Below are positions 454-28,808 of a DNA stretch of 34,141 nt, one piece after another. The stretch is from a virus, in UHGV virus genome UHGV-0461192; one strand, written 5' to 3'. The notes under the pieces are model-generated. The model saw nothing but the letters and a program-made list of their open reading frames with translations, did no database searches and was not told the origin of the DNA. Position numbers and translations under genes: made by a program. How positions within the stretch are numbered: position 1 is the stretch's first letter; each line of letters starts with the position of its first letter.

Positions 454-496
454 TGGGAAAGATAAGAATAAAATCAAAGCAATAAGCAGTGTCGTG

Positions 497-522
497 AAAC
501 CACCTTCGGGTGGTTTTTTTGT
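497..522 (+). terminator. rho-independent terminator of the tRNA operon
   Basis: hairpin AAACCACC-TTCG-GGTGGTTT followed by a T-run (TTTTTTTGT). Confidence 0.7.
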
Positions 523-583
523 ATCTTCTTTCTCATTTCCGAAGATGCGTCCGAAGATGATTTTTCTCTGGACGCATCATCAT

Positions 584-1630: not shown

Positions 1631-1832
1631 CTTTTCGCGTCGTCACCTCCTGTAAATTGCGAAATTTTATTGGGTTCATGAAATGGCCCCAGGTTGTTTT
1701 TGGGTGTCCGTCAGCCCTTTCCATGAAGAAAATTCCAGCCCGGCGAAGAGCCTCACATTGCTTTGATTTAAGTGGGCTTCCCGTCAGCTCGACCATTTCT
1801 TCTCTGGTGATTATGTCGTGATCGCTTTTCAT
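1569..1832 (-). CDS. xis: putative excisionase / small DNA-binding protein
   Basis: 87-aa ORF immediately upstream of and overlapping int; sequence DIITREEMVELTGSPLKSKQCEALRRAGIFFMERADGHPKTTW resembles winged-helix Xis/AlpA-like proteins. Confidence 0.55.
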   Translation of the reverse strand: MKSDHDIITREEMVELTGSPLKSKQCEALRRAGIFFMERADGHPKTTWGHFMNPIKFRNLQEVTTRKDDEPDFGAIFNGRKEKEPSR

Positions 1833-2022
1833 GGTCTTTCCTCATTATGTAGCTTATTGCGTCATCTGCCTTCTGGCAGGCACGGGCAATATCAGACTCG
1901 GTCAAAGTCTGTTTCCTGACGCTGGCCGACAGTCGACCAATTTTGATATCAAATGCGGAGAGCAGAGTTGCTCCCGGTTGCCATCGCAGCATTGTGATCC
2001 TCCGGTGTCTGGTGAATCGCAA
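1768..2022 (-). CDS. hypothetical small protein (uncertain)
   Basis: 84-aa ORF co-oriented with the early-left operon; overlaps the xis ORF start; no recognisable motif. Confidence 0.3.
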   Translation of the reverse strand: MRFTRHRRITMLRWQPGATLLSAFDIKIGRLSASVRKQTLTESDIARACQKADDAISYIMRKDHEKRSRHNHQRRNGRADGKPT

Positions 2023-2793: not shown

Positions 2794-5006
2794 GCTGTTT
2801 GCTCCTGTGCAGCGGTAAGGGCGGCGAGGCGTTCAGTTTTAATGTCGGTGATACGGCGCAGACGTGATCCCAGATACGATGAATATTCTTTATCGCCTTT
2901 GGTTTCCGCTGCTTTCCTGTGTACATCCACTTCGCGGGCGATGAGGCCAAATACCTTGTTTACTTCGTTGGCGGTTACCGCGGCGGCCAGCGTATTGGCA
3001 ACGTTGATAAGCTTCTCATCCAGTTCCTTACGCAGACGGGTAGCATCTTCCGCATTCTCGCTGGCATTCTTGATATCAAACTCAGCTTTATTCCTCTGGC
3101 GGTATTCCGGATTGTCGTACAGGCCCATGAAAATATCGGCGCTGAATCCGAGAGGGGATAGCGCTTTCTTAACAGCATCCGTCCAGGATTTCTTCGGTGC
3201 TTCGCCGTCGCTTGTTGGTCCGTATTTAGTGTCGTAGATATAAGGTGTGCATCCGTAAGCCTCGGACTCACCGCGTACCCCATTCAATATGTACCAGACT
3301 CTCACTTTCATGGTGTGGTGCATTTCACATAGGTACCCGCCAACACCGTCTTGAATCAGATCCCATTCTATTTTTTCACCAACCTGTTTTTTGCGAACTA
3401 TTGGTGCGCCTTTATCAAAGCGCTCCTCCAGCACCTCTACCCCCCAGCCAATACCAAATGGCCCAAATTCGCGAGTCGCTTTCATCGCTATATAAGTGCC
3501 GTTGATGGATGTGCCGCCGCCATTCTGAGAGAAAGCACTGGTGAAGCGCTCATCGGTTTTGAATACGTTCTTCCACAATGCCAGGTTATCCGTGTCATCT
3601 GAGTCCTTTAACTCCGTTTCGATAGCTGAGATTGCATTCTGCCGCTTGTGCTCTTCGGCATGGATCCGCTCAACCAGCGCGTCAACGTTCTGCACCAGAT
3701 CCTTTACCTGCTCGCTAAGTTGTTCTTGTGGAGGAGTCTCTTCTGCCAGGGTAATAGCTGCAGGTTCCCTCTGTGATACGGCGTTATTTTCAGGTACGTC
3801 ATACACATGGCGAGGCGTGACAAACTGCTCACGCAACTGCTGCAAACTACGTTCTCCAGCATTTGCAGCTTCGCTTTTTTCGCCCTGATTTGAGGGTGTT
3901 TCTGACATCATCCCATCAATTGAGAATCGTCCGCCGCCGTGGTTGGTGACTTTTACATCATCCTTGGGTGCTGCTTCCTTTGGCTTCTCTTCAACAGCAT
4001 TTGCATCACGCTGCCCGTTAGCTTGCAGCCAGTTGTCGATGTGACTGCGCAGGGATTGTGGGAAGTGGTACGTGTCTTTTGCGGGGGCGCTCTGAATAAC
4101 ACCGAATACTGATGCGCGGTCATAGGCAAGGATCTGATCCGTTGTGCGCAAGGCCATTGACCAGCGTTTAAAATCTTCCCTGTCCTGACTGATTATTTCG
4201 TCTGCCGCTTTCAGGATGCTGGGGGTGATTTTTTCCGGGGCAACAGGTAACAGGGCGCAGGCAATTTCACGATCCAGAGTGGCGTGAGTCTGTTTGTAAG
4301 GACGTGCGGATGCTGTTTCTGGTTTTACCTCCGGCAGCATTTCATCTCGTTTACCGGGATTCTCTACCCATTTTTTTATAAATTTGGAGATAGTCCAACT
4401 GGTCGGGTTTTGTTCCTGGGTATCGCAACTTGCCAAAATTGCATGTACCAGATTATTCAATCCAGCAATATGCATGTACTCGATGGGCTTACACGCCACC
4501 ATGGCATCAAGAACGATGCGGTTAAACGCGTCAACCTCATCCTCACTGTCAGTATCACTGTTATCGAGCATCTCCAGGTATTCACGCGTCTGCACAAGCA
4601 ATTCACTGTCGACTTCGTTGGCGTCGTGGCTGAACAGCAGAACGGCGGCGAATCGTTCACGAGCCGGCAGTTTCATCAGGTCGCTAACCTGTGAGATATC
4701 TGCTGAACTGCAATCTGAATCAACAGGAGTGTTAACTACCCATTTTTCGCCATCAAAACTGTGTTCTGTGGCAAACGTCTCATCAAACTCACCGACGCCT
4801 GGGCGCGGTTGGCCCGGGGCATCTTCCCAGATTTTAGGTTTGAAATAGTTGTCGCCGTGGTCAGGGTAGGCTTCCCACAATTTGCCGATGATGATGTTCT
4901 CGGCAACTTTTTTGTTAGGGGCGGCGATGGCGATGGCCAGCGCCGGGATCGCGCCGTTTTTGAGCGCGCCTTTTTTCGCTTCTAACAAGCCGTTAAAAAT
5001 GGTCAT
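2790..5006 (-). CDS. large recombination-associated protein with Rad52/Erf-type single-strand annealing signature in its C-terminal third
   Basis: 738-aa ORF; region FGPFGIGWGVEV...YGCTPYIYDTKYG...KKSWTDAVKKALSPLGFSADIFMGLYD resembles the conserved Rad52/Erf motif (K..TDA.K+AL..FG...); N-terminal ~500 aa of unknown function with long acidic stretches. Confidence 0.5.
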   Translation of the reverse strand: MTIFNGLLEAKKGALKNGAIPALAIAIAAPNKKVAENIIIGKLWEAYPDHGDNYFKPKIWEDAPGQPRPGVGEFDETFATEHSFDGEKWVVNTPVDSDCSSADISQVSDLMKLPARERFAAVLLFSHDANEVDSELLVQTREYLEMLDNSDTDSEDEVDAFNRIVLDAMVACKPIEYMHIAGLNNLVHAILASCDTQEQNPTSWTISKFIKKWVENPGKRDEMLPEVKPETASARPYKQTHATLDREIACALLPVAPEKITPSILKAADEIISQDREDFKRWSMALRTTDQILAYDRASVFGVIQSAPAKDTYHFPQSLRSHIDNWLQANGQRDANAVEEKPKEAAPKDDVKVTNHGGGRFSIDGMMSETPSNQGEKSEAANAGERSLQQLREQFVTPRHVYDVPENNAVSQREPAAITLAEETPPQEQLSEQVKDLVQNVDALVERIHAEEHKRQNAISAIETELKDSDDTDNLALWKNVFKTDERFTSAFSQNGGGTSINGTYIAMKATREFGPFGIGWGVEVLEERFDKGAPIVRKKQVGEKIEWDLIQDGVGGYLCEMHHTMKVRVWYILNGVRGESEAYGCTPYIYDTKYGPTSDGEAPKKSWTDAVKKALSPLGFSADIFMGLYDNPEYRQRNKAEFDIKNASENAEDATRLRKELDEKLINVANTLAAAVTANEVNKVFGLIAREVDVHRKAAETKGDKEYSSYLGSRLRRITDIKTERLAALTAAQEQTA

Positions 5007-5036
5007 TGGTCTTTCCTCATTACAGGTCAGTGGTTT

Positions 5037-5357
5037 TTAGTAGGGGAGCTCATCGGTATCTGGCGTGTATTCGATGCAAAGTAACTGCTGGATTTTGTCA
5101 TCGATAGCAGCAATACGCTGTTGGGCGTCGGCGACTGTTTTCTGTTTTTGTTCACGCAGTTGCTCGACCTGTAAACCGATGATGTCGATTGGCTCGGGCT
5201 GGTTAACGGTAATTTCAATTTCGCGGCTTTCCAGAAGGATGTACCTGTCTGGAAAATTTTTTGACATATCAACAGTCGCAACAAGCAGCTTTTCGTGGCT
5301 GAAAGTTGAAGTTGCATAATGAATAAAGAGTGTTACTGGGATGGTGCGCGCTTCCAT
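5037..5357 (-). CDS. hypothetical early protein
   Basis: 106-aa ORF with AGGAG RBS upstream of ATG; first gene of the leftward early operon after the long leader. Confidence 0.5.
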   Translation of the reverse strand: MEARTIPVTLFIHYATSTFSHEKLLVATVDMSKNFPDRYILLESREIEITVNQPEPIDIIGLQVEQLREQKQKTVADAQQRIAAIDDKIQQLLCIEYTPDTDELPY

Positions 5358-6223
5358 AGCGACTCCTTGGTAATGTATACTCAGAGCCGATCAGCGAATA
5401 TTGATCAGCTTCCATAGCGTCAGTGTCGTTGGTCTTTCCTCATCACAAGTTTGGTCACTTGTGATAAATCCGAATGGTTTGGTCGCCGTTCGGGGTAACT
5501 GGCCCGCCTTGTGCGGGTCTTTTGCTATCTAAAGGGTGCCGGTTACGTTTCCGGCGTCGTTATGTTTCCATTACGACCGTACAGGGCTGGTCAGGCCCGG
5601 GCTGGTCTTTCCTGTTTTGAGCTGGTCAGGCTCATGGTCAACGCTGGTCAGGCGTGGTACTTCCTCCGGTCTTTCCCTGGTGTCACGCTGCGGGTTTGGC
5701 CTCTCCTGTTGGGGACTCAGGCACAGCGATAAAACCTGGCTGTGTGAAAAAATGGCCCATCGTGCGGACTGGGCAAAGACTAAACACAGCAAATTGATGA
5801 TGGGCGCCCGGAATCGAACCGGGTAACGGGCAGGGAGTTCCCGTTAAACACCTGTTCACCACAACCGGGAGCGCACTCCGCCATTTCAAAATTTAACGAC
5901 AAAGCTCAAAGTTGAGTCGATGAAGTGCGCTCTCGTGTTGTAGCCAGGACTCTTCCCTGGTGGTCACACCGTATCGCCTTGATGGTGAATCAATCGCTCA
6001 TACCTGGCTGTGGCTTGCACATTCCGGCTACCTGCTATGGAGACAACGCGTTAAGGCTCCGCTTCCATCCAGACCGCTTCGACACATGTGCCATATGCCG
6101 GTGAAGTCTTTCCCTCTGTCACCGTGTTGGCGCCGACGCGCAAAATTTGGTGCCGTCTTTCCGGCTGTCAGAACGTGTTTCTGAACAACTGCCGCTGGGT
6201 AAGCGTTGTTGATGAAAGTGACT

Positions 6224-6246
6224 TTACAATTTGTATTTGTAATGGT
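6224..6246. promoter_or_regulatory. candidate left operator (oL-like) with TTTGTAAT half-site repeats
   Basis: TTTACAATTTGTATTTGTAATGG; shares the TTTGTAAT motif with the repressor-cro intergenic region. Confidence 0.4.
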
Positions 6247-6367
6247 CAATGTGTTTTTAAAAAATAATTTGTAGTGAGGGGCAAAAAAATATTCACTGTG
6301 TAAAGGTGTTTTTGTGTTAGGGGAAAGTTGCATGCCAGCAGCGGCTGGCCTGGAAATTTGAACTGAA

Positions 6368-6796
6368 CTATTTTGTCTGGTTTTTGGCTTCAAGTAGTTC
6401 TTTTAGCAGTAGATCGAAGTGCTCTCTTTTTTCTTTTAGCTCATTGATTAATTTATTTTTTTCGCTCTCAGGCAGTCCTCTGAATAGTTGCAGTAGAGCC
6501 TGTTCTTGCGGGGTTAGTTCTTGATTGTAATTACCCGGGTGTAGTGTGGATTCATCCAAATATTCCCCTTCATTCATGAAGAAAAAATGAACAGGGTATC
6601 CGGTCACTTTTGCTAGCTTGTCTAATTTATCTTTTCTTGGAGTTACCCCATTACACCATGCCTGAACTGATTGAGCCGTAACCCCAATATGGCGAGCTAA
6701 CTCAGATTGAGACCAGCCTAAGTCTTTTAGAATCCGTTGTAGTCGGCTAGCAAAAGCCATGTTTTTCGTTTTTGTGTTCATACCGTAAGGATACAA
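6368..6796 (-). CDS. prophage repressor, XRE-family HTH, no S24 peptidase domain
   Basis: 142-aa ORF with HTH segment LGWSQSELARHIGVTAQSVQAWCNG; divergent from a Cro-like gene; C-terminus lacks Ser-Lys autocleavage motifs. Confidence 0.8.
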   Translation of the reverse strand: MYPYGMNTKTKNMAFASRLQRILKDLGWSQSELARHIGVTAQSVQAWCNGVTPRKDKLDKLAKVTGYPVHFFFMNEGEYLDESTLHPGNYNQELTPQEQALLQLFRGLPESEKNKLINELKEKREHFDLLLKELLEAKNQTK

Positions 6797-6879
6797 GGTT
6801 TAATTGTAGGGAGCATTGCAAATATAATTTGTAATTACAGTTATTGTTTGTAATGATGACGCGGACACAAGGAGTCCAT
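6797..6879. promoter_or_regulatory. repressor-cro intergenic region: candidate oR operators and divergent promoters
   Basis: palindrome TGTAATTACA (6830-6839) and repeated TTTGTAAT (6828-6835, 6847-6854); possible pR -35 TTGTAA / -10 TAATGA; AAGGAG RBS before the cro-like ATG. Confidence 0.5.
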
Positions 6880-7168: not shown

Positions 7169-7645
7169 ATGGAAAACCAAGAGGAATTACAAAAAGAGAT
7201 TTTGACCTGGGCGGCAAGGGCAGGGCAGGAACTCGTCACGATTGAAATCTGCCGGGCCTGGTTCAGTCAGGGACGCAATGATGAGTTGAGACTACATGAA
7301 TTTGAGGACGCGGACGGCAACGTGGACTGGAGAGCCATCAACAACAATCGGCAGAAAATCTTTCGCTGGTTACGTGGCGAGACAACGGCGGCGCGCCGAA
7401 AAACTCAGGTGCTGGCCAGTGTGATGAAAGCCGTGCTACCCGCAGAACGGCGGGCACGTCTGGAGTCGCCGGGCGATCCCGTTTTGCTGGCAACGCTGGC
7501 GGCAAAAGAAGGGGTGGAAGCGATTAACGCTGTACATCTCCACTTCGCGCCAGAGTTAACTATTCAGGAAATTGACGAAGCAATAGCGGCGCTGGTAGCG
7601 ACGCGAGGAGCAGTGATACGCACTGCGCAAGACCACCATGCATGA
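7169..7645 (+). CDS. YdaT-like protein (CII-like regulator family)
   Basis: 158-aa ORF; AINNNRQKIFRWLRGETTAARRKTQVLASVMKAVLPAERRARL resembles the remembered Rac YdaT motif (W..QQNIYHRWLKGETKTQREKIQ...LPRELRHRL). Confidence 0.65.
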   Translation: MENQEELQKEILTWAARAGQELVTIEICRAWFSQGRNDELRLHEFEDADGNVDWRAINNNRQKIFRWLRGETTAARRKTQVLASVMKAVLPAERRARLESPGDPVLLATLAAKEGVEAINAVHLHFAPELTIQEIDEAIAALVATRGAVIRTAQDHHA

Positions 7646-7684
7646 GCGCCTGACCAGCGTTTAACTTATACCGAGGAAAGACCG

Positions 7685-7909
7685 ATGTTAAGACATATTG
7701 ACCGCATTACCTGGCGTAACGGCTGGCACCTGAATGGACGCCCGGCACATGTTGCAGAGATCCGCCCCATATTCGATGGCCGCGTCGCAGCTGCACGTTC
7801 TGTATGGGAAAAGTACGAAGAAGAAAAAGCGAAACTGCGTGAGCAAAATCTCTCTGGCGCTGCCTATGAGGCTGGCTGTCGCGTTCTCTCAGAGGCTTTG
7901 GGCATATGA
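7685..7909 (+). CDS. hypothetical small protein
   Basis: 74-aa ORF preceded by the conserved element GCCTGACCAGCGT...CCGAGGAAAGACCGATG. Confidence 0.5.
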   Translation: MLRHIDRITWRNGWHLNGRPAHVAEIRPIFDGRVAAARSVWEKYEEEKAKLREQNLSGAAYEAGCRVLSEALGI

Positions 7910-8661: not shown

Positions 8662-10066
8662 CGCGATTGCACTGTACAGCGTTGACGCAGAACAGGCTGT
8701 TCTGGGCTGTCTGATGCTGAATACCGACCACGACAGAACCAATGCGGTATTTGCGTTACTGAAACCGGAAACGTTTTATATCAATGCGCATCAGGTTATC
8801 TACCGGGAGATCAAAGGATTATTTCAAGCTGATAAACCAACTGACCTGATAACACTGACCGAACTGATGGAATCGAAGGGGCTGTATGAGCGCGTGGGGG
8901 GATTCGCATACCTGGCTGAAATGAGTAAGGCGGCGATTCCGGCCTCAATGGTCAACTACGCGAAAATTGTACGTGAAAAAGCCATTCTTCGTTATGCCGT
9001 GGAAAAGTTGAATTCTTGTCTGGAGATTATGATCCAGCCTGCAGATATGACTGCTACTGACAGGATCACCGCCGTTCAGCAAGTGATTGGGCAGGTGGCC
9101 GAACATTCCCGTACCGGGCATAAGGGCGGTTTGCGTCCGGCAAGTGAAGTCGTCGATGACTGGATAGATGACCTTGAGCGCCGTTTCAATGATCCAGCAC
9201 ATGCAGCCGGACTAACGCTCGGAATCGAAAGCCTTGATCGCTTAATGGCACCAAAGCAGGCGTTAAGAGGTTCATTGGTCGTTATTGGTGCCCGGCCAAA
9301 AATGGGCAAGACAGCCGCGTTTAATAAAATTGCGGTGCATTTTGCTCTGAATCATCGTTTGCCGACGCTGGTATTTAGCCTGGAAATGACTGACAGAAGT
9401 CTCATTGAACGCATGGTTGCGCAGGAAGCAAAGGTCAATTCGGAGATTTTTTATCTTGGCCCTAACGATGAATCTGAATTGAGTCTCGCAATAGCAAAGG
9501 CGGGGGAGATTGCCGAATCCAACATGATGATTGACAGCACGGCAGGTGTAACCCTTGCGCATATTGTCGCTGAATGTCGAAAAGTTAAACGGATGCGTGG
9601 CTCGGTTGGCCTGGTGGCAATTGACTATTTGACGCTGATGAAGACCGAATCGGCAGAGCGTAGGGATATTGCGTATGGCGATATCACAACCGGTTTGAAG
9701 AACCTGGCAAAAGAGCTGGATTGTGTTGTGGTCCTGCTGACGCAACTCAACCGAAAGCTTGAAGAACGTGCCGATAAGCGGCCTAACCCGAGCGACAGTA
9801 AAGATACCGGGCAGATCGAACAAGATTGCGATGTCTGGATTGGCCTCTATCGTGATGCTGTTTATAACGAAAATGCCGACCCAAATCTCATGGAAATGTT
9901 GCTACGTCTGAACCGCGAAGGACCATCGGGAACAGCCTATGCCCTGATGAAAAATGGCTCAGTTATTGATATCAGCGATGAGGAGGTTTATCGCCTTACC
10001 AACGACCGCTCAGAAAAAAATAAACGTTATTCCCGTAGCGATAATTCTCGCACAAATGAATTTTAA
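8651..10066 (+). CDS. replicative DNA helicase, DnaB family
   Basis: Walker A GARPKMGKT, DnaB-like motifs (VVIGARPKMGKTAAFN, LVAIDYLTLM, VVVLLTQLNRKLEERADKRP); start taken at ATG 8651 (RBS AGGAAG upstream), ORF opens at 8624. Confidence 0.88.
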   Translation: MINNAIALYSVDAEQAVLGCLMLNTDHDRTNAVFALLKPETFYINAHQVIYREIKGLFQADKPTDLITLTELMESKGLYERVGGFAYLAEMSKAAIPASMVNYAKIVREKAILRYAVEKLNSCLEIMIQPADMTATDRITAVQQVIGQVAEHSRTGHKGGLRPASEVVDDWIDDLERRFNDPAHAAGLTLGIESLDRLMAPKQALRGSLVVIGARPKMGKTAAFNKIAVHFALNHRLPTLVFSLEMTDRSLIERMVAQEAKVNSEIFYLGPNDESELSLAIAKAGEIAESNMMIDSTAGVTLAHIVAECRKVKRMRGSVGLVAIDYLTLMKTESAERRDIAYGDITTGLKNLAKELDCVVVLLTQLNRKLEERADKRPNPSDSKDTGQIEQDCDVWIGLYRDAVYNENADPNLMEMLLRLNREGPSGTAYALMKNGSVIDISDEEVYRLTNDRSEKNKRYSRSDNSRTNEF

Positions 10067-10104
10067 CCACGCCTGACCAGCGTGAAATAACCGAGGAAAG
10101 ACCA

Positions 10105-10515
10105 ATGACCACCACTCCAGGCAAATTAGAGTACCCGTCGGACAAAGGACACATAGACGACGGTAAAAACTATCTCGACGTCATTTTGTGGAATATGAAC
10201 GTCGGGCCACGTGCGCGCACTCGCGCGGTTTTTGTGCCAAGACCTAAAGCAGGCAATTTTTCAACCCCTGCTAAGCCTGCCCGTCAGGCATCCGTAGCCG
10301 CAGCGCCAGCAGTGAAACGTAAGGGCAAAACGCACACCGGGATCGCGATTCGCAGAAATGGTGAGCGGCAAGTGAAACTCCACGAAACAGCGACAACCTG
10401 GTGTGCCTCACCGCATGAAACTTACGACAAGATAACCGGGCAGCGCATTGGCGCGCCTGGTCGCTGCCGCCTGCTGCTGAGTTCCATCACTCCGATAGCA
10501 AAGAAAGGGGCGTGA
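10105..10515 (+). CDS. hypothetical protein
   Basis: 136-aa ORF preceded by the same conserved element GCCTGACCAGCGT...CCGAGGAAAGACCAATG. Confidence 0.5.
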   Translation: MTTTPGKLEYPSDKGHIDDGKNYLDVILWNMNVGPRARTRAVFVPRPKAGNFSTPAKPARQASVAAAPAVKRKGKTHTGIAIRRNGERQVKLHETATTWCASPHETYDKITGQRIGAPGRCRLLLSSITPIAKKGA

Positions 10516-11691: not shown

Positions 11692-11933
11692 ATTGACTTA
11701 GAAAAAGTCCGGGGCTATAGTTTCCGCGCAGCCGCAAAATCGGTTGCCGGGATTGGCGTCCCGGATATCTAAGTGACGCATAGCCGCGTTAGCGGTTTTT
11801 TTATGTGTTAGGCACGGCCACATTCGCATTATGGTGGGCTGTGTGGGGGCTTCTGTGGAAGCGCCGGGTTCACTTAGCCGGTTACGCCAACCCTGCACAG
11901 CTCACCACCAGATGATTGGCGTCGCTGGTGGTG

Positions 11934-20898: not shown

Positions 20899-21282
20899 AT
20901 GTCTGAACCTCTAACCGCTGGCGTTGCTGCTGGCTCGGCGGGGGTGACGTTTGCTGCGTTATTTCCTGAGGCAACACCTGCAGTGATGATCTGTGCGCTG
21001 GCAGGCGCAGCTCTCTATGTGTTGTCGTCCGGGCAGCATCGATTCTGGAAGCAGGTTATTTTCGCACTCATTTCGTTTGTTGGCGGTGTGTATTGCGCTG
21101 AGACAGCGTCAGCCATCATTACCGGTATTCTGAACGCGGTGCTGAGTCACCTGAACCCTCCCGTAACAGTAAAAGTCTCTCCCGCCATTGGTGCACTGGT
21201 TGCATCAGTAATCAGCGTTACATCACTGTTGCGGATCATGTCACAAGCTCGTTTATGGAAATCAGATAAGGGGATGAAATAA
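20899..21282 (+). CDS. putative holin
   Basis: 127 aa from ATG 20899 (ORF opens at 20818); multiple hydrophobic helices and charged C-terminus; first gene of the lysis cassette. Confidence 0.55.
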   Translation: MSEPLTAGVAAGSAGVTFAALFPEATPAVMICALAGAALYVLSSGQHRFWKQVIFALISFVGGVYCAETASAIITGILNAVLSHLNPPVTVKVSPAIGALVASVISVTSLLRIMSQARLWKSDKGMK

Positions 21283-21554
21283 TGACCCTGCACTCTGTCC
21301 TCATCAATGCCAATGCAATTATTTGTCTGATGTTGGCACTACGGTTGATGTTTTTTCAAAAAACAGGCCGCTATCGTTTTTTCATCTCACTAACTGCTTA
21401 CCTCGCGATTCTGTCTGCTGCGTGGATAGCCCTACGAATTTTTTACGGGAAATATACGCAGGTTGATCCCGCAGAGTTCTTTCTCAACCTCACCATCTGT
21501 ATTGCTGTCTGGCGGGCACGAGGGAATATTTCAAAAATAACAGGAGACAGGTAA
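21282..21554 (+). CDS. small membrane protein (holin/antiholin-like)
   Basis: 90-aa ORF with two or three hydrophobic segments; start overlaps previous stop. Confidence 0.45.
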   Translation: MTLHSVLINANAIICLMLALRLMFFQKTGRYRFFISLTAYLAILSAAWIALRIFYGKYTQVDPAEFFLNLTICIAVWRARGNISKITGDR

Positions 21555-22033
21555 TGACGGATCCTAAATGGCTAATCGAGGCTCGAAAAAACCTCGGCAT
21601 TCGGGAAATGAAAGGGAAGCAACATGCTGCAGAAATTGTGCAGTACTGGAAAGATATCAAACGCGGCGGCATTAAGGATGACGAAACACCGTGGTGCGCT
21701 GCTTTCACCGGGGCAATGCTGGAACGTGCGGGTATTCGCTCAACGCGTTTTGAGTCTGCGAATTCTTATCTCGATTGGGGTAATGAACTGAAGGAACCCG
21801 CCTATGGATGCATTGCTATTCTGTCTCGGTCTGGCGGTGGTCACGTCGGCTTTGTTGTCGGGAAAAATGCCGCCGGGGATTTAATGATTTTGGGGGGCAA
21901 CCAGGCAGATGAAGTAAATATCAAAGCTTTTCCTCGTTCCCGCGTAACAGGCTACCGCTGGCCAGCAGGTCAAACGGATGTTCCACAATCACTTCCATTG
22001 GTGAATGCTGAGAAATCTATCTCAGAAGCGTAG
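21554..22033 (+). CDS. endolysin, CHAP/NlpC-P60-like peptidase type
   Basis: 159-aa ORF with candidate catalytic Cys (ETPWCAAF) and His (GGGHVGFVVG); sits in the lysis cassette. Confidence 0.6.
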   Translation: MTDPKWLIEARKNLGIREMKGKQHAAEIVQYWKDIKRGGIKDDETPWCAAFTGAMLERAGIRSTRFESANSYLDWGNELKEPAYGCIAILSRSGGGHVGFVVGKNAAGDLMILGGNQADEVNIKAFPRSRVTGYRWPAGQTDVPQSLPLVNAEKSISEA

Positions 22034-22040
22034 GTAAAAC

Positions 22041-22235
22041 GTGAAAAAACTTCTCTTAGCTGTCGCGTTCTTCACGCTGGCAGGCTGCACACATTCGACA
22101 TACACCGAAGCGACTCGCGCTGACGGCAGCAGTATTAAACACGTGATGATCGCGCCGGGTACGAAGATTACTACTGCGAACGGTGGTTGTATTGATTCAA
22201 CCGGGGCAGAGGCTTCATGCCTTGGTGGAAAATAG
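22041..22235 (+). CDS. small lipoprotein (possible spanin-like or accessory protein)
   Basis: 64-aa ORF, GTG start, signal peptide with lipobox LAGC. Confidence 0.45.
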   Translation: MKKLLLAVAFFTLAGCTHSTYTEATRADGSSIKHVMIAPGTKITTANGGCIDSTGAEASCLGGK

Positions 22236-22294
22236 GGTAATTTACTTTAACGAGAGGCCGCCTTTTTGTTTTAAGGCGGCACACATTCAACAGA

Positions 22295-22555
22295 TTAAGG
22301 TAACTGATTTGACCATTTTGTTGCGCGCCAGTTGTTCTGAACCATAATCTTCTGAAGTATCTCATCTGAAGGCTCTGCTTCGCCGCTTAGCCATTCTCTT
22401 AAAGTTGAACAATTTAGATAAGAGGAGTTCGCACGATAAAAAGATACGATGGCGTCCTCTGATAACTTCTCAGGAAACTTTTTTGGGTCAGCTTCTTTTA
22501 ATATTACGCTCATTAAGGCTTCAATTTTTTCTCTGTTCATTTTTTGCGTTCTCAT
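22295..22555 (-). CDS. hypothetical protein on the opposite strand (moron-like)
   Basis: 86-aa ORF in an AT-rich stretch between lysis genes and cos/terminase, convergent with the lysis genes. Confidence 0.4.
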   Translation of the reverse strand: MRTQKMNREKIEALMSVILKEADPKKFPEKLSEDAIVSFYRANSSYLNCSTLREWLSGEAEPSDEILQKIMVQNNWRATKWSNQLP

Positions 22556-22908
22556 GGTTGTTGTTTTTCTGTAATGATATCAATAAGTTCAAGATATATA
22601 CATATATGGAAAACTTGTTCGGTAGTCTATCGATACAGCACAAAAGGATGGCTCGCTGCCAAAGTGAAAGCTTACGCTGATAATCAGATACACAAAGCTG
22701 ATGTATGCAAACAAGTACGCCGCGAGGCTACAGTTGAGTTTGATGAACCTGATGCGAGCCCCTAATTCCTGTCCTGAAAGGGAGATAGCCCCCTGGTCGC
22801 GGGTCCTTTCCGAAATCCAAAACACCGAGGGTCGGTAGACGCGCAAAAACTCGCTCGTTTTTAGTATTTTTTCATTTTGGGTATTTCCGGTTCCGGTGAG
22901 GATTTTTA

Positions 22909-23475
22909 ATGGCAAGTCAGGCTGAGGTTGCAGCACATTTACTGCTATCTGATCGTCGTCTGCGCGATCTCGCAAAACTTCCGGGAGCACCAGTCCCACA
23001 AGGACGTGGTGATTGGGAGCTAGACGCATGGCGCCATTTTTATATTCGTTATCTCCGGAGCAATAGACGCGACACAACTAGTAATGACGAACCGGAAGCG
23101 GGGGACAATTCTCCCGAAAAAAATCGCGAGCAGTGGCTGAAAAATGAGGAACGACAGGAGCGAATCCTGATGGCACGAGTAAAACGCCGCATTCTCGCTA
23201 AACGCTACGCGCCAATTGAATTAATTAGCGTCGCTGTATCTCGCGTCGCCGTTGAATTACGTACCCGCGTCGAGTCGTGGCCACCACGCCTGAAAAAGGT
23301 CTGGCCGGAGATGCCGCAAGAGGCGAGCAGTGTATTACGAGAGGAGCTGGCGATAGCCTTAAATGAGTTGTCAGACATACGAATCGACTTCAGCGATTAC
23401 GATGTCAGCGATATCGAACGCGATCTCGACAGGGTTGAATCCCTTGCGCGTGACGATACCGATGACGGGTGTTGA
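22909..23475 (+). CDS. terminase small subunit (Nu1-like)
   Basis: 188-aa ORF; N-terminal pattern resembles lambda Nu1; overlaps the large-subunit start. Confidence 0.7.
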   Translation: MASQAEVAAHLLLSDRRLRDLAKLPGAPVPQGRGDWELDAWRHFYIRYLRSNRRDTTSNDEPEAGDNSPEKNREQWLKNEERQERILMARVKRRILAKRYAPIELISVAVSRVAVELRTRVESWPPRLKKVWPEMPQEASSVLREELAIALNELSDIRIDFSDYDVSDIERDLDRVESLARDDTDDGC

Positions 23476-25324
23476 GTGGGCTGATAAATATTTTTATCTC
23501 CCTGAGGGCTCCAGCCACATCGCTGGGCACTGGACGACTCAGCCGGTCCAGGTAGTGATGCTCAATATGATGACGAACGACGCGATAAAAATCGTGTCTG
23601 TTCGCAAATCAGCTCGTCTCGGTTATACAAAAATACTCGTCGCGGCGCTGCTCTATTTCGCTGAGCACAAAAAACGTAGTGCCGTGGTCTATCAGCCTAT
23701 CGATGACGAATCGGATGGATTTGTCGCCGACGAGGTTGACCCCGCTATCGCCGAAATGCCAGTGATTCAGAAAATTTTCCCCGACTGGGATAAAAGCAAC
23801 GAGCGTAACAATCTCCAGCGTAAAGAAATGAGCGGCGCGATTCTTGATTTTCGCGGCGCGAGTGCACCAGGAAATTTCCGGCGACTAACGAAACAGGTTG
23901 TCGAGGGTGACGAAGTTGACGGCTGGCCGCTGGAAGTTGCCAAAAAAGGCAAAGGCGAGGGCTCGCCCATCGAACTGGCGCTCGTTCGAATTAAAGGGGC
24001 AGCGTACCCGAAGGCGATTTTTGGTTCGACGCCGACCGTTACCGGCAAAAGTCATATCGAAATGCTCGAAGACGCTGCCGATCTGACGTTTCGTTTTTAC
24101 CTGACATGTCCGCATTGTGGCGAGGAGCAGGTCCTGGTATTTGGTTTCGACGGTATCGAATACGGCCTCAAATGGGATAACAGCCTGCAGACCAATGAGG
24201 CGAAATCGTCGTCCGCGTATTACCAGTGCTGCCACTGCCCGGAACATTTTTACTATCGCGATCTCGAAAAAATGGAGTTCGGGGGGCGCTGGATAGCCGA
24301 GGACTGCACCTGGACCCGAGACGGCATTCATTTTTTTGATCATGACGGTGGCGTCGTTCGCGCGCCGAAACACGCTGCGATCGTGATAAACGCCCTGTAT
24401 TCACTAAACCTCGATGGATGGGGCGAGATTGTCAGCGAGTGGCTGAAAGCGAAAGGCGACCCGCTCAAGGAAAAGACGTTTCATAACACGACGCTCGGCG
24501 AACTCTGGAGCGACGTGGCCAGCGAGCAGCTGGAGCACGATATTCTGGTTAATCGCCGGGAAAAATACGCCAGCCAGGTTCCTGACGGTGTTGTTTATAT
24601 AACCGGCGGCATCGACTCTCAGACGTCCGGGCGCTACGAGTGTTATGTGTGGGGCTGGGGAGCCGAGGAGGAGTGCTGGCTGATTGATAAAACAATCGTC
24701 CTCGGTCGCTACGACGAGGAGGACACGCTGCAGCGCGTCGACGGAGTGATTCGCAAACAATACCGGCGCAGCGACGGGACCACAATCGGCGTCAGTCGCT
24801 GGGCGTGGGATACCGGTGGTATAGATGCGCAGGTCGTTTATAACCGCTCGCTGAAACTCGGTCCGCTGTGGGTCATTCCAATCAAGGGCGCGAGCTCATA
24901 CGGCCAGCCGGTCGTAAATATGCCTCGTACCCGTAACGCGAATAAAGTGTATTTGTCGTTGATTGGGACAGATACAGCGAAAGACCTGCTCGCAATGCGC
25001 CTGCAGCTGGAACCCGACTCCAAATCGGCGACACCAGGTGCGATTCATTTTCCCAACGACGACGAAATATTCAGCACGACAGAGGCAAAACAGCTCGTCT
25101 CCGAGGTTCTGATCCCGAAACTCATTAACGGTCGCGTCGTTTATCGTTGGGACAACCAGGGCCGGCGAAATGAGGCGCTCGACTGCTGGGTGTACGGACT
25201 GGCAGCGCTGCGTATCAGTAAAATTCGTTTCCAGCTCAATCTCGAGACGCTCGCTGAGCAACGGAAAAAATCACAAAACAAACTGTCTCTCGAGGAGATG
25301 GCCAGAATGCTCGGAGGGAGCTAA
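23462..25324 (+). CDS. terminase large subunit (lambda gpA-like)
   Basis: VEWADKYFYLPEGSSHIAGHW...VSVRKSARLGYTKILV...FYLTCPHCGEEQ...DTGGIDAQVVYNRS...IPIKGASSYGQPV closely parallels lambda gpA; start taken at ATG 23462, ORF opens at 23363. Confidence 0.93.
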   Translation: MTGVEWADKYFYLPEGSSHIAGHWTTQPVQVVMLNMMTNDAIKIVSVRKSARLGYTKILVAALLYFAEHKKRSAVVYQPIDDESDGFVADEVDPAIAEMPVIQKIFPDWDKSNERNNLQRKEMSGAILDFRGASAPGNFRRLTKQVVEGDEVDGWPLEVAKKGKGEGSPIELALVRIKGAAYPKAIFGSTPTVTGKSHIEMLEDAADLTFRFYLTCPHCGEEQVLVFGFDGIEYGLKWDNSLQTNEAKSSSAYYQCCHCPEHFYYRDLEKMEFGGRWIAEDCTWTRDGIHFFDHDGGVVRAPKHAAIVINALYSLNLDGWGEIVSEWLKAKGDPLKEKTFHNTTLGELWSDVASEQLEHDILVNRREKYASQVPDGVVYITGGIDSQTSGRYECYVWGWGAEEECWLIDKTIVLGRYDEEDTLQRVDGVIRKQYRRSDGTTIGVSRWAWDTGGIDAQVVYNRSLKLGPLWVIPIKGASSYGQPVVNMPRTRNANKVYLSLIGTDTAKDLLAMRLQLEPDSKSATPGAIHFPNDDEIFSTTEAKQLVSEVLIPKLINGRVVYRWDNQGRRNEALDCWVYGLAALRISKIRFQLNLETLAEQRKKSQNKLSLEEMARMLGGS

Positions 25325-25557
25325 TGACGTCGCGCGAGGTTTTAACAGAACGACTGCTGGAAGCGGAAATCGCTCTGCACAAATTATTAACGGGTAAATC
25401 GACCGTGTCGCTGTCTCACGGCGATTCAGCAGGAAATAACCGGAGCTATCAATACTCGCAGGCGAGTATTGAGCAGCTCCGAACGTACATTATCGAGCTG
25501 AAATCACAGCTCGGTCTGAGTACGGGACGCCGTCGGCCCGTGGGAGTTCGATTATGA
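25324..25557 (+). CDS. head-tail joining protein (lambda gpW-like)
   Basis: 77-aa ORF; EIALHKLLTGKSTVSLSHGD...SIEQLRTYIIELKSQLG parallels lambda gpW. Confidence 0.8.
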   Translation: MTSREVLTERLLEAEIALHKLLTGKSTVSLSHGDSAGNNRSYQYSQASIEQLRTYIIELKSQLGLSTGRRRPVGVRL

Positions 25558-27128: not shown

Positions 27129-28435
27129 TGCCGTGGAACAATTTTCCGCACCTCGCCGCCAGGGCGTTCAATCAACCGCTTTTGCTGGAGCCCACCTACG
27201 CGCGGGTATTTTTTTCGGCGCTGAGCGACCGGTTCGGTACCGGGCGACTGATTGATACAGCGTCTGGAGAGGTAATGAACAGCGACGAAATGAACGCGCT
27301 CGCGATGGGGTGGGACAGCAGCGAGCGAACACGCCAGAAATCGTATCGCGTGGAGCGTGGTATAGCCGTTCTGCCGGTTACCGGGACGCTGGTTCATAAA
27401 TTGGGTTATATCAACCCAGTTAGCGGGATGAGCGGTTACAACGGAATCGCAAAACGCCTGCAGCAGGCGATTTCTGATCCCGATGTAAGAGGGGTCCTGC
27501 TTGATATTGACTCCCCTGGCGGTGAAGTCGCCGGCGCGTTTGATACTGCTGATTTAATCGCCCGGGCGCGAGAGCAAAAACCTGTGTGGGCGCTGGCCAG
27601 CGATACGGCCTGCAGCGCTGCCTATTTGCTGGCGTCAGCGTGTTCGCGCCGGCTGATAACGCAGACAGGCACAGTTGGTTCAATCGGTGTCCTGATGGCT
27701 CACCGCTGCGTCGAAAAAGCGCTGGAGATTGCTGGCGTCGACGTGACGCTGATTTACGCCGGCGCGCACAAAGTTGACGGGAACCCGTATTCCCAGCTGC
27801 CAGGCGACGTTCGCGACGAATTCCAGCTGAGTATTAACAGCACGCGCGAGCAGTTCGCGCAAAAAGTCTCGGATTATACCGGGCTGAAAAAATCCAGGGT
27901 GCTGGCCACGGAAGCTGCAGTATTTATCGGCGCGGACGCGATTAAATCTGGTCTCGCTGATCAACTCGTTAATTACGCGGACGCTATCGCAGTGATGGCC
28001 GACGCACTGAAACCAAAAATGGAGCGCTTTATGTCTGGTACAGAAACCACGGCGGAGACCACGACCACAGAACAAACCGCGACCACGACTACTGTCGCGC
28101 AGGTTGAGTTTAACACGGAGCAGATTCGCGCGGACGCCGCATCAAGCGAACTGGCGCGTGTGATGGCCATCATCAATTGTCCCGAAGCTGTTGGGCGCGA
28201 GGCGCAGGCAAAAGCGCTCGCTGGCGTCCCCGGGATGACGGTCGGGCAGGCGCAGGTAGTCCTCGCTGCAGCACCTAAAACGGCGCAGGCGCGGACAGAA
28301 ACGGCGCTCGATACACTAATGAGCACTGAATCACCAGCGACTATTCAGGATGCTGGCAGTACTACGGCAACAGGAACAACCGCAAACGTCTCGATGCTGG
28401 TTGCTGCAGGGCGTTCAATTTTAGGGGATGAATAA
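27128..28435 (+). CDS. head maturation protease / scaffold (lambda gpC-like, S49 ClpP-type)
   Basis: 435-aa ORF; GIAVLPVTGTLV...MSGYNGIAKRLQQA, KPVWALASDTACSAAYLLASA and TGSIGV... parallel lambda gpC. Confidence 0.9.
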   Translation: MPWNNFPHLAARAFNQPLLLEPTYARVFFSALSDRFGTGRLIDTASGEVMNSDEMNALAMGWDSSERTRQKSYRVERGIAVLPVTGTLVHKLGYINPVSGMSGYNGIAKRLQQAISDPDVRGVLLDIDSPGGEVAGAFDTADLIARAREQKPVWALASDTACSAAYLLASACSRRLITQTGTVGSIGVLMAHRCVEKALEIAGVDVTLIYAGAHKVDGNPYSQLPGDVRDEFQLSINSTREQFAQKVSDYTGLKKSRVLATEAAVFIGADAIKSGLADQLVNYADAIAVMADALKPKMERFMSGTETTAETTTTEQTATTTTVAQVEFNTEQIRADAASSELARVMAIINCPEAVGREAQAKALAGVPGMTVGQAQVVLAAAPKTAQARTETALDTLMSTESPATIQDAGSTTATGTTANVSMLVAAGRSILGDE

Positions 28436-28764: not shown

Positions 28765-28783
28765 TAGCAAAAAACTCAAAACA

Positions 28784-28808
28784 AGCCGCCTCCGGGCGGT
28801 TTTTTTAT
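28784..28808 (+). terminator. intra-operon hairpin plus T-run between the D-like and E-like genes
   Basis: CCGCC-TCCG-GGCGG stem followed by TTTTTTTAT. Confidence 0.35.

What the first reader, a model, noticed from the sequence alone, without database searches (positions are those of the whole stretch)
5360..6220. ORF-poor 850-bp early-left leader with clustered GCCTGACCAGC and GGAAAGACC repeats shared with rightward gene starts
The region between the repressor/oL and the first leftward gene has no credible ORF. On the leftward transcript it carries three copies of GCCTGACCAGC interleaved with GGAAAGACC-type elements (plus-strand coordinates about 5570-5700). The same composite element, GCCTGACCAGCGT, 7-10 nt, CCGAGGAAAGACC, ATG, precedes the rightward genes at 7685 and 10105, and a GAGGAAAGACCAATG variant precedes the 738-aa gene. 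The same orientation relative to transcription in both operons suggests a cis-acting RNA element (nut- or put-like antitermination, processing or translation-initiation signal) rather than chance.
Basis: seen in the sequence. Interest (0 to 1): 0.5.

Follow-up and report, generated by a model that had tools for sequence, protein, structure and literature searches.

The report
Conserved hairpin-plus-ribosome-site cassette in prophage early operons
The two repeats are real: one is a small RNA hairpin with an invariant loop and the other an extended ribosome-binding cassette, kept together at early-gene junctions in many Enterobacterales prophages, and the "empty" leader is packed with conserved RNA modules.

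Summary
Observation confirmed. GCCTGACCAGC occurs 5 times (0.54 expected) and GGAAAGACC 7 times (0.12 expected), always in the sense of transcription. No leader ORF has a phage-family match.

GCCTGACCAGC (H) is the top of a 4-7 bp stem-loop with an invariant CUGACCA loop and covarying outer pairs. GGAAAGACC (S) is a Shine-Dalgarno core plus a fixed spacer, 0-4 nt before ATG. H+S sits where an upstream cistron ends, in over 120 viral contigs and in prophages of at least eight Enterobacterales genera. A sister lineage (Pectobacterium phage ZF40) uses GGCAAGACC at every start. No locus mixes the two variants.

Best reading: a cis-acting intercistronic RNA cassette for early genes, probably read by a sequence-specific factor. 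Its closest analogue is the SAS/ESAS repeats of cluster K mycobacteriophages. A nut- or put-type element is not supported: no boxA, no U-tail, no N-like gene, nothing similar in HK022.

The leader itself holds:
- pL/oL and two GAAAGA-loop hairpins;
- a 160-nt structured RNA absent from Rfam;
- a tRNA-like element;
- a homologue of the Rac sRNA KilS and the RprA 3' end, with a terminator;
- the orphan H/S array.

Function is inferred, not shown.

The parts
6221..6249 (-). pL promoter (TTGACC-17-TAAAGT), overlapping the oL operator repeat TTACAATTTGTATTTGTAAT at 6224-6243
   Evidence: Promoter scan. The 20-nt repeat is shared with two oR copies at 6816-6854.
6152..6165 (-). Promoter-proximal hairpin GCCG-GAAAGA-CGGC (GAAAGA hexaloop)
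   Evidence: Read from sequence. BUCT708 has GCCCG-GAAAGA-CGGGC at the same place. GAAAGA sits in stems of at least 4 bp in 64 of 706 contexts, against 105 of 5671 for shuffled loops.
6103..6116 (-). Second GAAAGA-loop hairpin, GAGG-GAAAGA-CTTC
   Evidence: Relatives have GCGG-GAAAGA-CCGC or CTGC.
5940..6101 (-). Element A: a roughly 160-nt structured RNA with four covarying helices, a likely pseudoknot and a 19-nt invariant core GGUAGCCGGAAUGUGCAAG. No Rfam family matches it.
   Evidence: Covariance model R1 scores 138 bits, E 1e-42. Nine pairs show double changes. No Rfam hit at E up to 10. More than 120 viral contigs carry the core, in 27 clusters at 92% identity.
5861..5941 (-). Long-range helix (ACAAC..GAGAGCGCAC / GUGCGCUC..GUUGU) with a variable insert. 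Its 3' strand is homologous to the 5' end of the Rac sRNA KilS.
   Evidence: Covarying versions GAGAGCAUU/AGUGCUCUC in other phages, seen by eye. Alignment to Rac and KilS.
5799..5862 (-). tRNA-like element: a canonical T-arm CCCGG-UUCGAUU-CCGGG plus a second arm. It is not a tRNA by ARAGORN or by Rfam's gathering score.
   Evidence: Weak tRNA-Sec-like hit of 19 bits. ARAGORN negative. Compensatory variants in L014, L098 and ZF40, seen by eye. True tRNA-Arg occupies this position in 22 of 113 element-A loci.
5745..5797 (-). KilS/RprA-3'-like sRNA module: UUUGCUGUGUUUAGUCUUUGCCC followed by an intrinsic terminator
   Evidence: RprA model 37 bits, below the gathering score of 70. Terminator scan. 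blastn to RprA nt 61-83 in the window, and matches starting at nt 56-62 and reaching nt 106 in 76 loci. KilS alignment.
5584..5678 (-). Orphan H/S array: S 5668-5676, H 5643-5653, H 5621-5631, S 5604-5612, H 5586-5596. Stems are CACGC/GCGUU(G), GAGC/GCUC and GGGC/GCCC.
   Evidence: Conserved with changes in BUCT708 and dozens of leaders.
5501..5519 (+). GC-rich hairpin that is an intrinsic terminator only for rightward (antisense) transcription. It is preceded by an A-run on the leader strand.
   Evidence: Terminator scan. The same A6-hairpin arrangement is conserved in most leaders.
5431..5463 (-). Hairpin UCACAAG-UGACCAAA-CUUGUGA followed by an orphan GAGGAAAGACC that has no start codon
   Evidence: the 146-nt segment has z = -3.85. 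Relatives have UACAGGG-GACCAA-CCCUGUA plus GAGGAAAGACCAAC.
5004..5018 (-). S cassette GAGGAAAGACCA + ATG of the 738-aa exonuclease gene (no H)
1830..1843 (-). S cassette GAGGAAAGACC + ATG of the DUF4224 excisionase-like gene (no H)
7643..7687 (+). H+S composite between the cII-like ydaT gene (stop at 7643-7645) and the 74-aa gene (ATG at 7685)
   Evidence: The fold gives a 7-bp hairpin and an open SD.
10068..10107 (+). H+S composite between dnaB (stop at 10064-10066) and the 136-aa gene (ATG at 10105)
   Evidence: Fold z = -2.1, with the hairpin as the only structure in the centroid fold.

Best explanation
GCCTGACCAGC (H) and GGAAAGACC (S) are the two halves of a portable intercistronic RNA cassette used in the early (pL and pR) operons of a large family of lambdoid prophages of Enterobacterales.

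H is a short stem-loop. It has two fixed G-C/C-G pairs, 2-4 freely covarying outer pairs and an invariant heptaloop CUGACCA. It forms exactly where the upstream cistron ends.

S is an extended translation-initiation sequence: GAGG as the SD core, then the fixed spacer AAAGACC, then ATG 0-4 nt on. It stays single-stranded 5-25 nt downstream of H.

I propose that the cassette acts in cis on the mRNA. It would give the downstream early gene a defined, independently initiating start, and possibly a processed or stabilised one. I further propose that H's loop and S's fixed spacer are read by a sequence-specific trans-acting factor, which would put these early genes under one post-transcriptional control.

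The three H and several S copies in the leader are start-less ('orphan') copies. They lie in the long 5' UTR downstream of a terminated KilS/RprA-like leader sRNA. They could serve as an entry, titration or autoregulatory cluster for the same factor.

Shown: sequence, structure, covariation, position, orientation, conservation and the lineage-specific S variant. Inferred: action at the RNA level, the effect on translation or processing, and the existence of a reader.
For: 1. Hairpin.
- In 74 distinct 23-mers, 88% of cells pair. There are 49 double-change cells against 21 +/- 3 in shuffles (0 of 500 reach the observed value). Slid controls pair at 12-50%.
- 278 of 485 CTGACCA occurrences have a stem of at least 4 bp, against 58 of 3818 for shuffled 7-mers.

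2. Loop and S are more conserved than their surroundings.
- Both are invariant from Escherichia to Serratia and Rosenbergiella, while spacers and flanking genes diverge.
- Cassettes within one phage share only about 40 nt. Their flanks are at random-level identity.

3. Position.
- 379 of 665 S copies have a start codon within -1 to +9 nt of the motif's end that opens an ORF of at least 30 aa. 345 of these are ATG at 0-4 nt, most often at +1 (203 copies).
- 208 of the 379 carry H within 60 nt upstream.
- In 175 of 182 unique composites, an upstream ORF of at least 60 codons stops between -14 and +26 nt of H.
- H keeps the same nucleotides whether it is translated (..QRLTSV*) or untranslated.

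4. Orientation and restriction. All copies follow transcription in the two divergent early operons. None occurs in the late genes.

5. Folding. The folds show the hairpin plus an unpaired SD.

6. A specific reader or homogenisation. 120 loci hold 379 start-linked GGAAAGACC and no GGCAAGACC. 48 loci, plus ZF40, hold 103-106 GGCAAGACC and no GGAAAGACC. No locus mixes the two.

7. Precedent. SAS/ESAS in cluster K mycobacteriophages have the same logic (PMC3203893).
Against: - No experiment and no transcript data bear on this element.
- No candidate reader was found. The proteins next to the cassettes have no Pfam or PDB match, and they fold poorly as single sequences.
- The loci were collected with the exact motifs, so counts of invariance are partly by ascertainment. 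Only the outer stem pairs, the flanks and the additional copies are unbiased.
- Much of the conservation is orthologous. The composite precedes only a few gene positions.
- Uniformity of S within a genome could come from gene conversion rather than from a reader.
- The orphan leader copies have no start codon, so a purely translational role does not explain them.
- In the GGCAAGACC lineage the leader hairpins keep GAAAGA loops. This argues against a simple decoy model.
Confidence: 0.45

Rival explanations
1. Processing and stability signal without a dedicated reader. H would be a 3'-end protecting hairpin or an RNase E-guiding hairpin at cistron ends. Cleavage in the A/U-rich spacer would free a downstream mRNA that starts just before a strong SD. 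This would be the analogue of the RNase III sites between T7 early genes (comparison from my own knowledge).
For: H lies at the very end of upstream cistrons. Spacers are often A/U-rich, for example GUUUAAC, GAUAUAA and GAAAUAA. The hairpin is the only stable structure and the SD is open. The same leader uses tRNA-like and terminator structures that imply processing.
Against: A generic protective hairpin does not need an invariant 7-nt loop while its stem drifts. Nor does it need a fixed spacer after the SD that switches as a block between lineages. The stems are short (4-7 bp).
Confidence: 0.2
2. nut/put-like processive antitermination signal. The hairpins, in pL and pR transcripts, would load a phage antiterminator or modify RNA polymerase so that it reads through downstream terminators.
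For: Copies lie in both early operons in the sense orientation. A hairpin with a conserved loop is the logic of boxB. The leader has a strong intrinsic terminator that must be passed to express the early-left genes. Promoter-proximal GAAAGA-loop hairpins upstream of that terminator resemble the purine-rich boxB loops (the boxB comparison is from my own knowledge).
Against: No boxA enrichment: 8 of 194 against 97 of 2000. The H copies lie downstream of the leader terminator and 570-630 nt from pL. Rightward copies lie about 770 and 3200 nt from pR, at cistron junctions tied to start codons. No arginine-rich N-like gene was found. There is no GAAAGA hairpin between cro and the cII-like gene. HK022 has none of these elements.
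Confidence: 0.12
3. Recombination linker. The cassette would be a short conserved boundary sequence kept because it lets phage recombinases swap neighbouring gene modules. Sequence identity would then be maintained by gene conversion, not by an RNA function.
For: Different downstream genes follow the same dnaB-stop-H-S junction. 33 of 935 pairs with near-identical upstream flanks have unrelated downstream flanks, and 57 of 915 show the reverse. The all-or-none S variant per genome fits homogenisation. The phage encodes an exonuclease and a Gam-like protein.
Against: Most pairs keep both flanks together (586 of about 930). Compensatory stem changes with an invariant asymmetric loop point to selection on a folded single strand. 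The fixed distance to ATG and the strict transcriptional orientation are not needed for recombination.
Confidence: 0.13
4. Nothing more than chance, or a strong ribosome-binding site.
For: S contains GAGG at an SD-like distance from ATG.
Against: Counts are far above shuffles. Seven conserved nt beyond the SD have no anti-SD pairing. There are orphan copies without starts. The H hairpin covaries. The cassette is conserved across genera.
Confidence: 0.02

Closest known systems
Start-associated sequences (SAS) and extended SAS (ESAS) of cluster K mycobacteriophages (Pope et al. 2011, PMC3203893)
   Same: An asymmetric conserved sequence that contains the SD core plus positions with no rRNA pairing. 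It lies a few nt upstream of (mostly ATG) start codons of non-structural genes, in one orientation and in front of unrelated genes. About half the copies carry a second, inverted-repeat element just upstream. Consensus differs between sub-lineages. Function is unknown, and a host or phage reader has been proposed.
   Different: Unrelated sequence (GGGATAGGAGCCC against GAGGAAAGACC) and unrelated hosts. ESAS are 17-bp imperfect inverted repeats for which the authors found little support for RNA hairpins. H is a short hairpin with clear compensatory changes and an invariant loop. The prophages here also have start-less copies clustered in the pL leader.
Lambda/P22 nut sites (boxA + boxB bound by N)
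   Same: A small hairpin with a conserved loop, present in both early transcripts of a lambdoid phage in the sense orientation.
   Different: No boxA and no N-like gene. The loop is a heptaloop rather than a GNRA-like pentaloop. Copies are not promoter-proximal. There are several per operon, each tied to a start codon.
KilS sRNA of the Rac prophage (Bar et al. 2021, PMC8175672) and the processed 3' 47 nt of RprA (PMC9262595)
   Same: This applies to the leader, not to H/S. Window bases about 5950-5745 share with Rac the block GGAGUGCGC..CCGGUUGU, the seed (A)UUGCUGUGUGUAGUC and a terminator, in the 5' UTR of the early-left operon. The seed plus terminator match RprA from about nt 56-62 up to nt 106 in 76 loci.
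   Different: The window copy has a roughly 65-nt tRNA-like insertion and a 160-nt structured element upstream. It scores 37 bits against the RprA model, below the gathering score of 70. Relatives give no RprA hit at gathering. Rac has no H or S motifs.
3'ETS-leuZ and other sRNAs released from tRNA precursors (Lalaouna et al. 2015; from my own knowledge, not read here)
   Same: A tRNA or tRNA-like structure is followed directly by a short seed and the operon terminator. tRNA processing would therefore release an Hfq-type sRNA.
   Different: Here the 'tRNA' is degenerate. Processing has not been shown.

Membership tests
Lambda-type nut site | boxA (CGCUCUUUA-like) a few nt upstream of the hairpin | tested here: not met
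   0 exact and 8 of 194 one-mismatch matches within 50 nt of H, against 3 and 97 of 2000 random windows.
Lambda-type nut site | boxB: a 5-bp stem with a purine-rich GNRA-like pentaloop | tested here: not met
   H has the heptaloop CUGACCA. The GAAAGA hexaloop hairpins near pL are closer in style, but they have no counterpart downstream of pR.
Lambda-type nut site | An arginine-rich N protein encoded just downstream of nutL | tested here: inconclusive
   The first early-left gene (106 aa) is acidic, belongs to PHROG 2479 of unknown function and has no Pfam or PDB match. The single-sequence model is poor, pLDDT 50.
Lambda-type nut site | One promoter-proximal site per early operon, upstream of the first terminator | tested here: not met
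   The leader H copies are 570-630 nt from pL and downstream of the terminator at 5755-5769. The rightward copies lie after the cII-like gene and after dnaB.
HK022 put RNA | Sequence or structure relatedness to putL/putR | tested here: not met
   HK022 bases 21000-31000, which should span the immunity and early region (the put sites are not annotated in the record), hold no H, S or seed motif. Model R1 finds nothing there.
HK022 put RNA | Acts in cis on RNA polymerase to suppress termination without a phage protein | not testable with these tools
   Needs read-through assays.
SAS/ESAS-type start-associated repeats (a functional class, not a homologous family) | A conserved asymmetric sequence holding the SD core, within a few nt of start codons, extending beyond rRNA pairing | tested here: met
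   379 of 665 S copies are start-linked, with ATG most often at +1. The spacer AAAGACC is invariant.
SAS/ESAS-type start-associated repeats (a functional class, not a homologous family) | One orientation, non-structural genes only, in front of unrelated genes | tested here: met
   In the window there are no copies beyond 10103, apart from one one-mismatch chance-like site.
SAS/ESAS-type start-associated repeats (a functional class, not a homologous family) | A second inverted-repeat element immediately upstream in a subset of sites | tested here: met
   H lies upstream of 208 of 379 start-linked S copies. Unlike ESAS, it shows RNA-type covariation.
Intrinsic terminator (for H) | A U-rich tract directly after the stem | tested here: not met
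   2 of 194 contexts have at least 6 T in the 10 nt after the stem.
RprA (Rfam RF00034), for the leader sRNA module | A score at or above the family's gathering threshold over the whole model | tested here: not met
   37.4 bits against 70. There are no gathering-level hits in 11 related loci. Only nt 56-106 are alike.
KilS (Rac prophage sRNA), for the leader sRNA module | Shared sequence blocks and the same position in the 5' UTR of the early-left operon, ending at a terminator | tested here: met
   Hfq binding and expression were not tested for the window copy.
tRNA (for 5799-5862) | A cloverleaf recognised by ARAGORN or the Rfam tRNA model | tested here: not met
   ARAGORN finds only the three host tRNAs. 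There is only a 19-bit tRNA-Sec-like match. The T-arm is intact but the acceptor stem is not.

The most novel reading that the evidence does not exclude
The early operons of this prophage family are run by a so far undescribed post-transcriptional regulon. A lineage-specific reader, protein or RNA, would recognise the CUGACCA loop and the GG(A/C)AAGACC spacer at cistron junctions.
Probability: 0.2. Interest if true: 0.8.

Novelty: new variant of a known kind. Interest (0 to 1): 0.62.

Why it matters
- **Reach.** The prophage sits in 476 of 5426 complete E. coli genomes; the listed top matches include named ST131 strains such as JJ2434 and an O25b:H4-ST131 isolate. Its relatives are spread over Enterobacterales. 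A shared RNA cassette at early-gene junctions would be a general handle on how these prophages time their recombination, replication and excision genes.
- **A tractable model.** It would give an E. coli model for the unexplained SAS/ESAS phenomenon of mycobacteriophages.
- **Leader sRNA.** The leader shows that a prophage can carry a copy of the active 3' part of the host sRNA RprA, which is related to Rac KilS. This suggests cross-talk with the Rcs/RpoS-linked RprA regulon. It also bears on where such core sRNAs came from.
- **New RNA family.** Element A is a candidate new structured RNA family with more than 120 viral occurrences and no Rfam entry.

Tried and rejected
- **Coding explanation.** Eight leader ORFs have no PHROG match. 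Mini-ORFs that start at orphan S copies are not conserved: ATG alternates with ACG, and indels are not multiples of three.
- **RNase P RNA relationship.** From memory, E. coli M1 RNA holds CUGACCAG (nt 5-12) and GAGGAAAGUCC (the P4 strand). The fetched rnpB sequence confirms this. However, local alignment of the leader with M1 scores 23, against 19 +/- 2.3 for shuffles (23 of 300 are at least as high). I treat it as coincidence.
- **Pairing of the KilS/RprA-like seed with S sites.** Duplex energies of -10 to -16.5 kcal/mol equal the control mean of -13.2 +/- 3.9.
- **CsrA-sponge idea.** The leader has 20 GGA against 15.9 +/- 3.3 in shuffles, p about 0.13.
- **Decoy model linking GAAAGA hairpins and S.** In the GGCAAGACC lineage the hairpins keep GAAAGA.
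- **H as a terminator.** No U tails.
- **Chi-like DNA signal (GCTGGTCA against GCTGGTGG).** It does not explain the stem covariation. Rejected by reasoning only.
- **Element A as put.** No match in HK022.
- **Literature search by sequence.** Searches for H, S and the element A core found nothing relevant. Searches for RprA homologues in prophages also found nothing.
- **Search for a reader protein.** There are no Pfam or PDB matches. The AlphaFold single-sequence models were too poor to search (pLDDT 50 and 68).
- **Not used.** I did not run the large protein-database searches, because their answer would not have decided the finding.
Full report
**Setting**

The window is an E. coli prophage. 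It is 100% identical to strain SK1144 and is present in 476 of 5426 complete E. coli genomes. It is integrated just after the host glyW-cysT-leuZ tRNAs.

The gene order is as follows:
- int, a DUF4224 xis-like gene, a 60-aa gene, a Gp157/Gam-like gene, a 738-aa exonuclease and a 106-aa gene, all leftward;
- then about 1 kb without annotation;
- a cI-like HTH repressor (6368-6760, leftward);
- then cro-like, cII-like (YdaT family), a 74-aa gene, an O-like gene, dnaB and a 136-aa gene, all rightward.

A sigma-70 promoter TTGACC-17-TAAAGT at 6249-6221 (minus strand) overlaps a 20-nt repeat. That repeat recurs twice between cI and cro.

**The observation**

GCCTGACCAGC occurs 5 times (0.54 expected) and GGAAAGACC 7 times (0.12 expected). 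All copies are in the sense of transcription. A fourth start-linked S copy precedes the xis-like gene. No leader ORF has a PHROG match, and RefSeq annotates nothing there.

**What GCCTGACCAGC is**

Many of them have 2-4 copies arranged divergently, as in the window.

Reading the instances showed complementary flanks that differ from copy to copy, for example CGGCGC..GCGCCG, CACGC..GCGTG, GAGC..GCTC and GGGC..GCCC. On 74 distinct 23-mers:
- the two pairs outside the fixed GC/GC pair in 93-96% of sequences, each with three pair types;
- overall there are 49 double-change cells against 21 +/- 3 in shuffles (0 of 500 reach the observed value);
- slid registers pair at only 12-50%.

Of 485 CTGACCA occurrences, 278 have stems of at least 4 bp, against 58 of 3818 for shuffled heptamers.

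H is thus a stem-loop whose loop is more constrained than the identity of its stem. That is the signature of a folded single strand that something reads. It is not a terminator (2 of 194 have U tails), and no boxA lies nearby.

**What GGAAAGACC is**

Of 665 copies in 121 sequences, 379 have a start codon within -1 to +9 nt of the motif's end that opens an ORF of at least 30 aa. 345 of these are ATG at 0-4 nt: 203 at +1, 73 at 0, 48 at +3, 20 at +4 and 1 at +2. Of the 379, 208 carry H within 60 nt upstream.

The motif reads (C/U)GAGG-AAAGACC. Only GAGG can pair with the anti-SD (my reading of the 16S 3' end). The rest is therefore conserved for another reason.

In 175 of 182 unique composites, an upstream ORF of at least 60 codons ends between -14 and +26 nt of H. 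H keeps its nucleotides whether it is translated as ..QRLTSV* or lies 2-4 nt after the stop. Folding gives the hairpin and leaves the SD open.

Cassettes at different places in one phage share only the roughly 40-nt cassette. Their flanks are at the identity of unrelated DNA.

**Distribution**

One genome per species was scanned. Multi-copy hits occur in Escherichia, Citrobacter, Enterobacter, Raoultella, Pseudescherichia, Shimwellia, five Serratia species and Rosenbergiella. The single hits in unrelated phyla are about as many as my estimate of roughly 28 chance matches in 596 Gb.

Among isolated phages, only BUCT708/709 and Pectobacterium phage ZF40 carry the cassette.

ZF40 has H after dnaB, but it uses GAGGCAAGACC at five or more gene starts. 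A scan for that variant found 48 more contigs. Across the two sets:
- 379 start-linked copies are all of the A type;
- 103 are all of the C type;
- no locus holds both.

Ascertainment fixes one copy per locus. The other copies, up to nine per locus, are free, so the block-wise switch is real. It calls either for a lineage-specific reader or for homogenisation among cassettes.

**The leader itself**

It is a chain of conserved RNA modules, listed here 5' to 3' on the minus strand.

1. Two hairpins with GAAAGA loops at 6165-6152 and 6116-6103. Their stems covary in relatives.
2. Element A at 6101-5940.
   - It has four helices with compensatory changes.
   - A probable pseudoknot changes from CACC/GGUG to AACC/GGUU in two clusters, seen by eye in alignment A2.
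   - It has a 19-nt invariant core.
   - No Rfam family matches at E up to 10.
   - My covariance model scores it at 138 bits.
   - The core is in more than 120 viral contigs, in 27 clusters at 92% identity.
   - It occurs downstream of repressors (BUCT708, mEp390), between terminase and portal on the opposite strand in epsilon15-like phages, and between tRNA-Ile and ban in P1-like plasmids.
   - 82 of 113 distinct copies are followed by a GUUGUGG junction, and 22 by a true tRNA-Arg.
   - Only 25 of 121 H/S loci have it, so it is an optional insert.
3. A long-range helix at 5941-5861.
4. A tRNA-like element at 5862-5799, with a perfect T-arm.
5. At 5797-5745, UUUGCUGUGUUUAGUCUUUGCCC followed by an intrinsic terminator.

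The last module matches the 3' part of E. coli RprA (from about nt 56-62, up to nt 106) in 76 loci. The best match is 94% over 48 nt. It stays below Rfam's threshold for RprA. The last 47 nt of RprA are a processed form that is active in vivo (PMC9262595).

The same seed, and the block GGAGUGCGC..CCGGUUGU before it, form the K-12 Rac sRNA KilS. KilS is an Hfq-associated RNA from the 5' UTR of kilR, verified by northern blot (PMC8175672).

The pL transcript that stops at 5748 is therefore a KilS-type leader sRNA, here extended by element A and a tRNA-like element. By analogy with tRNA-linked sRNAs, the tRNA-like fold would let RNase P and RNase E release the seed-bearing 3' piece. This is inference.

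The H/S array (5678-5584) lies downstream of that terminator. After it come a hairpin that terminates only antisense transcription (5501-5519), a GACCAA-loop hairpin and an orphan S (5463-5431). All of these are conserved in other leaders.

**Mechanism**

The data fix the level and the place. The element is a folded RNA, lies at cistron junctions and is tied to start codons of early genes only.

I commit to the following reading. The cassette is a translation-initiation cassette whose hairpin loop and fixed spacer are read by a specific factor. The leader copies are start-less sites for the same factor. Confidence is 0.45.

The rivals are:
- a reader-free processing or stability signal (0.2);
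- nut/put-like antitermination (0.12);
- a recombination linker (0.13).

Mosaic breaks at the cassette do occur but are a minority: 33 of 935 and 57 of 915 pairs. The nut and put tests failed on boxA, loop type, position, an N-like gene and similarity to HK022.

**What led nowhere**

- Homology to RNase P RNA, despite two shared short motifs.
- Seed-S pairing.
- GGA enrichment for CsrA.
- A decoy link between GAAAGA hairpins and S.
- Structure prediction of the neighbouring small proteins.
- Literature searches by sequence.

**Comparison and novelty**

The nearest described phenomenon is the SAS/ESAS repeats of cluster K mycobacteriophages. They share the logic and the unknown function, but the sequence is unrelated and there is no evidence for a hairpin (PMC3203893).

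I found no description of the H/S cassette or of element A in the searchable literature. I rate the finding a new variant of a known kind. Element A is a possible new RNA family, and the KilS/RprA link is a useful side result.

Noticed in passing
window 5940-6101 (-); also L004, L005, L006, L007, L008, L009, L010 and L132-L245: Element A is a roughly 160-nt structured RNA with covarying helices, a likely pseudoknot and the invariant core GGUAGCCGGAAUGUGCAAG. No Rfam family matches it and no paper holds the core sequence. It is widespread in temperate Enterobacterales phages (lambdoid, epsilon15-like, P1-like), usually just upstream of a tRNA or tRNA-like element.
   Followed up: partly
window 5745-5950 (-); K-12 Rac, L324 9406-9503 (-): The leader carries a homologue of the Rac sRNA KilS. 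Its seed and terminator also match the active 3' 47-50 nt of the host sRNA RprA. 76 fetched loci have this module. L098 is 94% identical to RprA nt 59-106.
   Followed up: partly
window 5638-5669; L002 602-633: A 32-nt spacer in the type I-E CRISPR array of E. coli strain 702/18 (and of 23CRST013) matches the H/S array of the leader. The blast match is 95.5% identical over 43-44 bp including flanking repeat bases, and the 32-nt spacer itself matches the window when read by eye.
   Followed up: partly
window 5501-5519 (+): A GC hairpin followed by a T-run on the plus strand is a terminator for transcription antisense to the leader. The same A-run/hairpin arrangement is conserved in most related leaders. 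The antisense transcript and its promoter were not identified.
   Followed up: no
window 11715-11912 (+): Rfam gathering-level hits lie in tandem upstream of an ORF6N gene: c4-a1b1, isrK and C4 antisense RNA. This looks like a P1/P7-type C4 immunity module with an IsrK-like RNA.
   Followed up: no
window 454-527: Homology to non-lysogenic E. coli runs about 70 nt past leuZ and ends at about 523-527. The prophage therefore joins the chromosome just after the region that in K-12 gives the sponge RNA 3'ETS-leuZ (from my own knowledge), and that region appears to be retained.
   Followed up: partly
window 5353-5364 and 5404-5415 (-): CGCTATGGAAGC occurs twice: once at the true start of the 106-aa gene and once 50 nt upstream. 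The upstream copy opens a short out-of-frame ORF (MEADQYSLIGSEYT..). In 45 related loci the corresponding ORF starts right after the orphan S cassette.
   Followed up: no
E. coli rnpB (L246 317-693, -) against the window motifs: RNase P RNA contains both CUGACCAG (nt 5-12) and GAGGAAAGUCC (the P4 strand), in the same order as H and S. Overall alignment with the leader is not significant, so this is unexplained and is treated as coincidence.
   Followed up: partly
L003 about 3400-4200 (strain LD91-1): A 94.6%-identical variant of the leader spans 1358 bp of the record for 885 query bases, so it carries an insertion of roughly 470 bp. A 74-aa hypothetical gene is annotated at locus 3973-4197 under the match.
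   Followed up: no
L247 (phage ZF40) 285-510 (-): In ZF40 the tRNA-like element and a GCUGUGUAGUC seed lie between the first and second early-left genes rather than in the leader.
   Followed up: no
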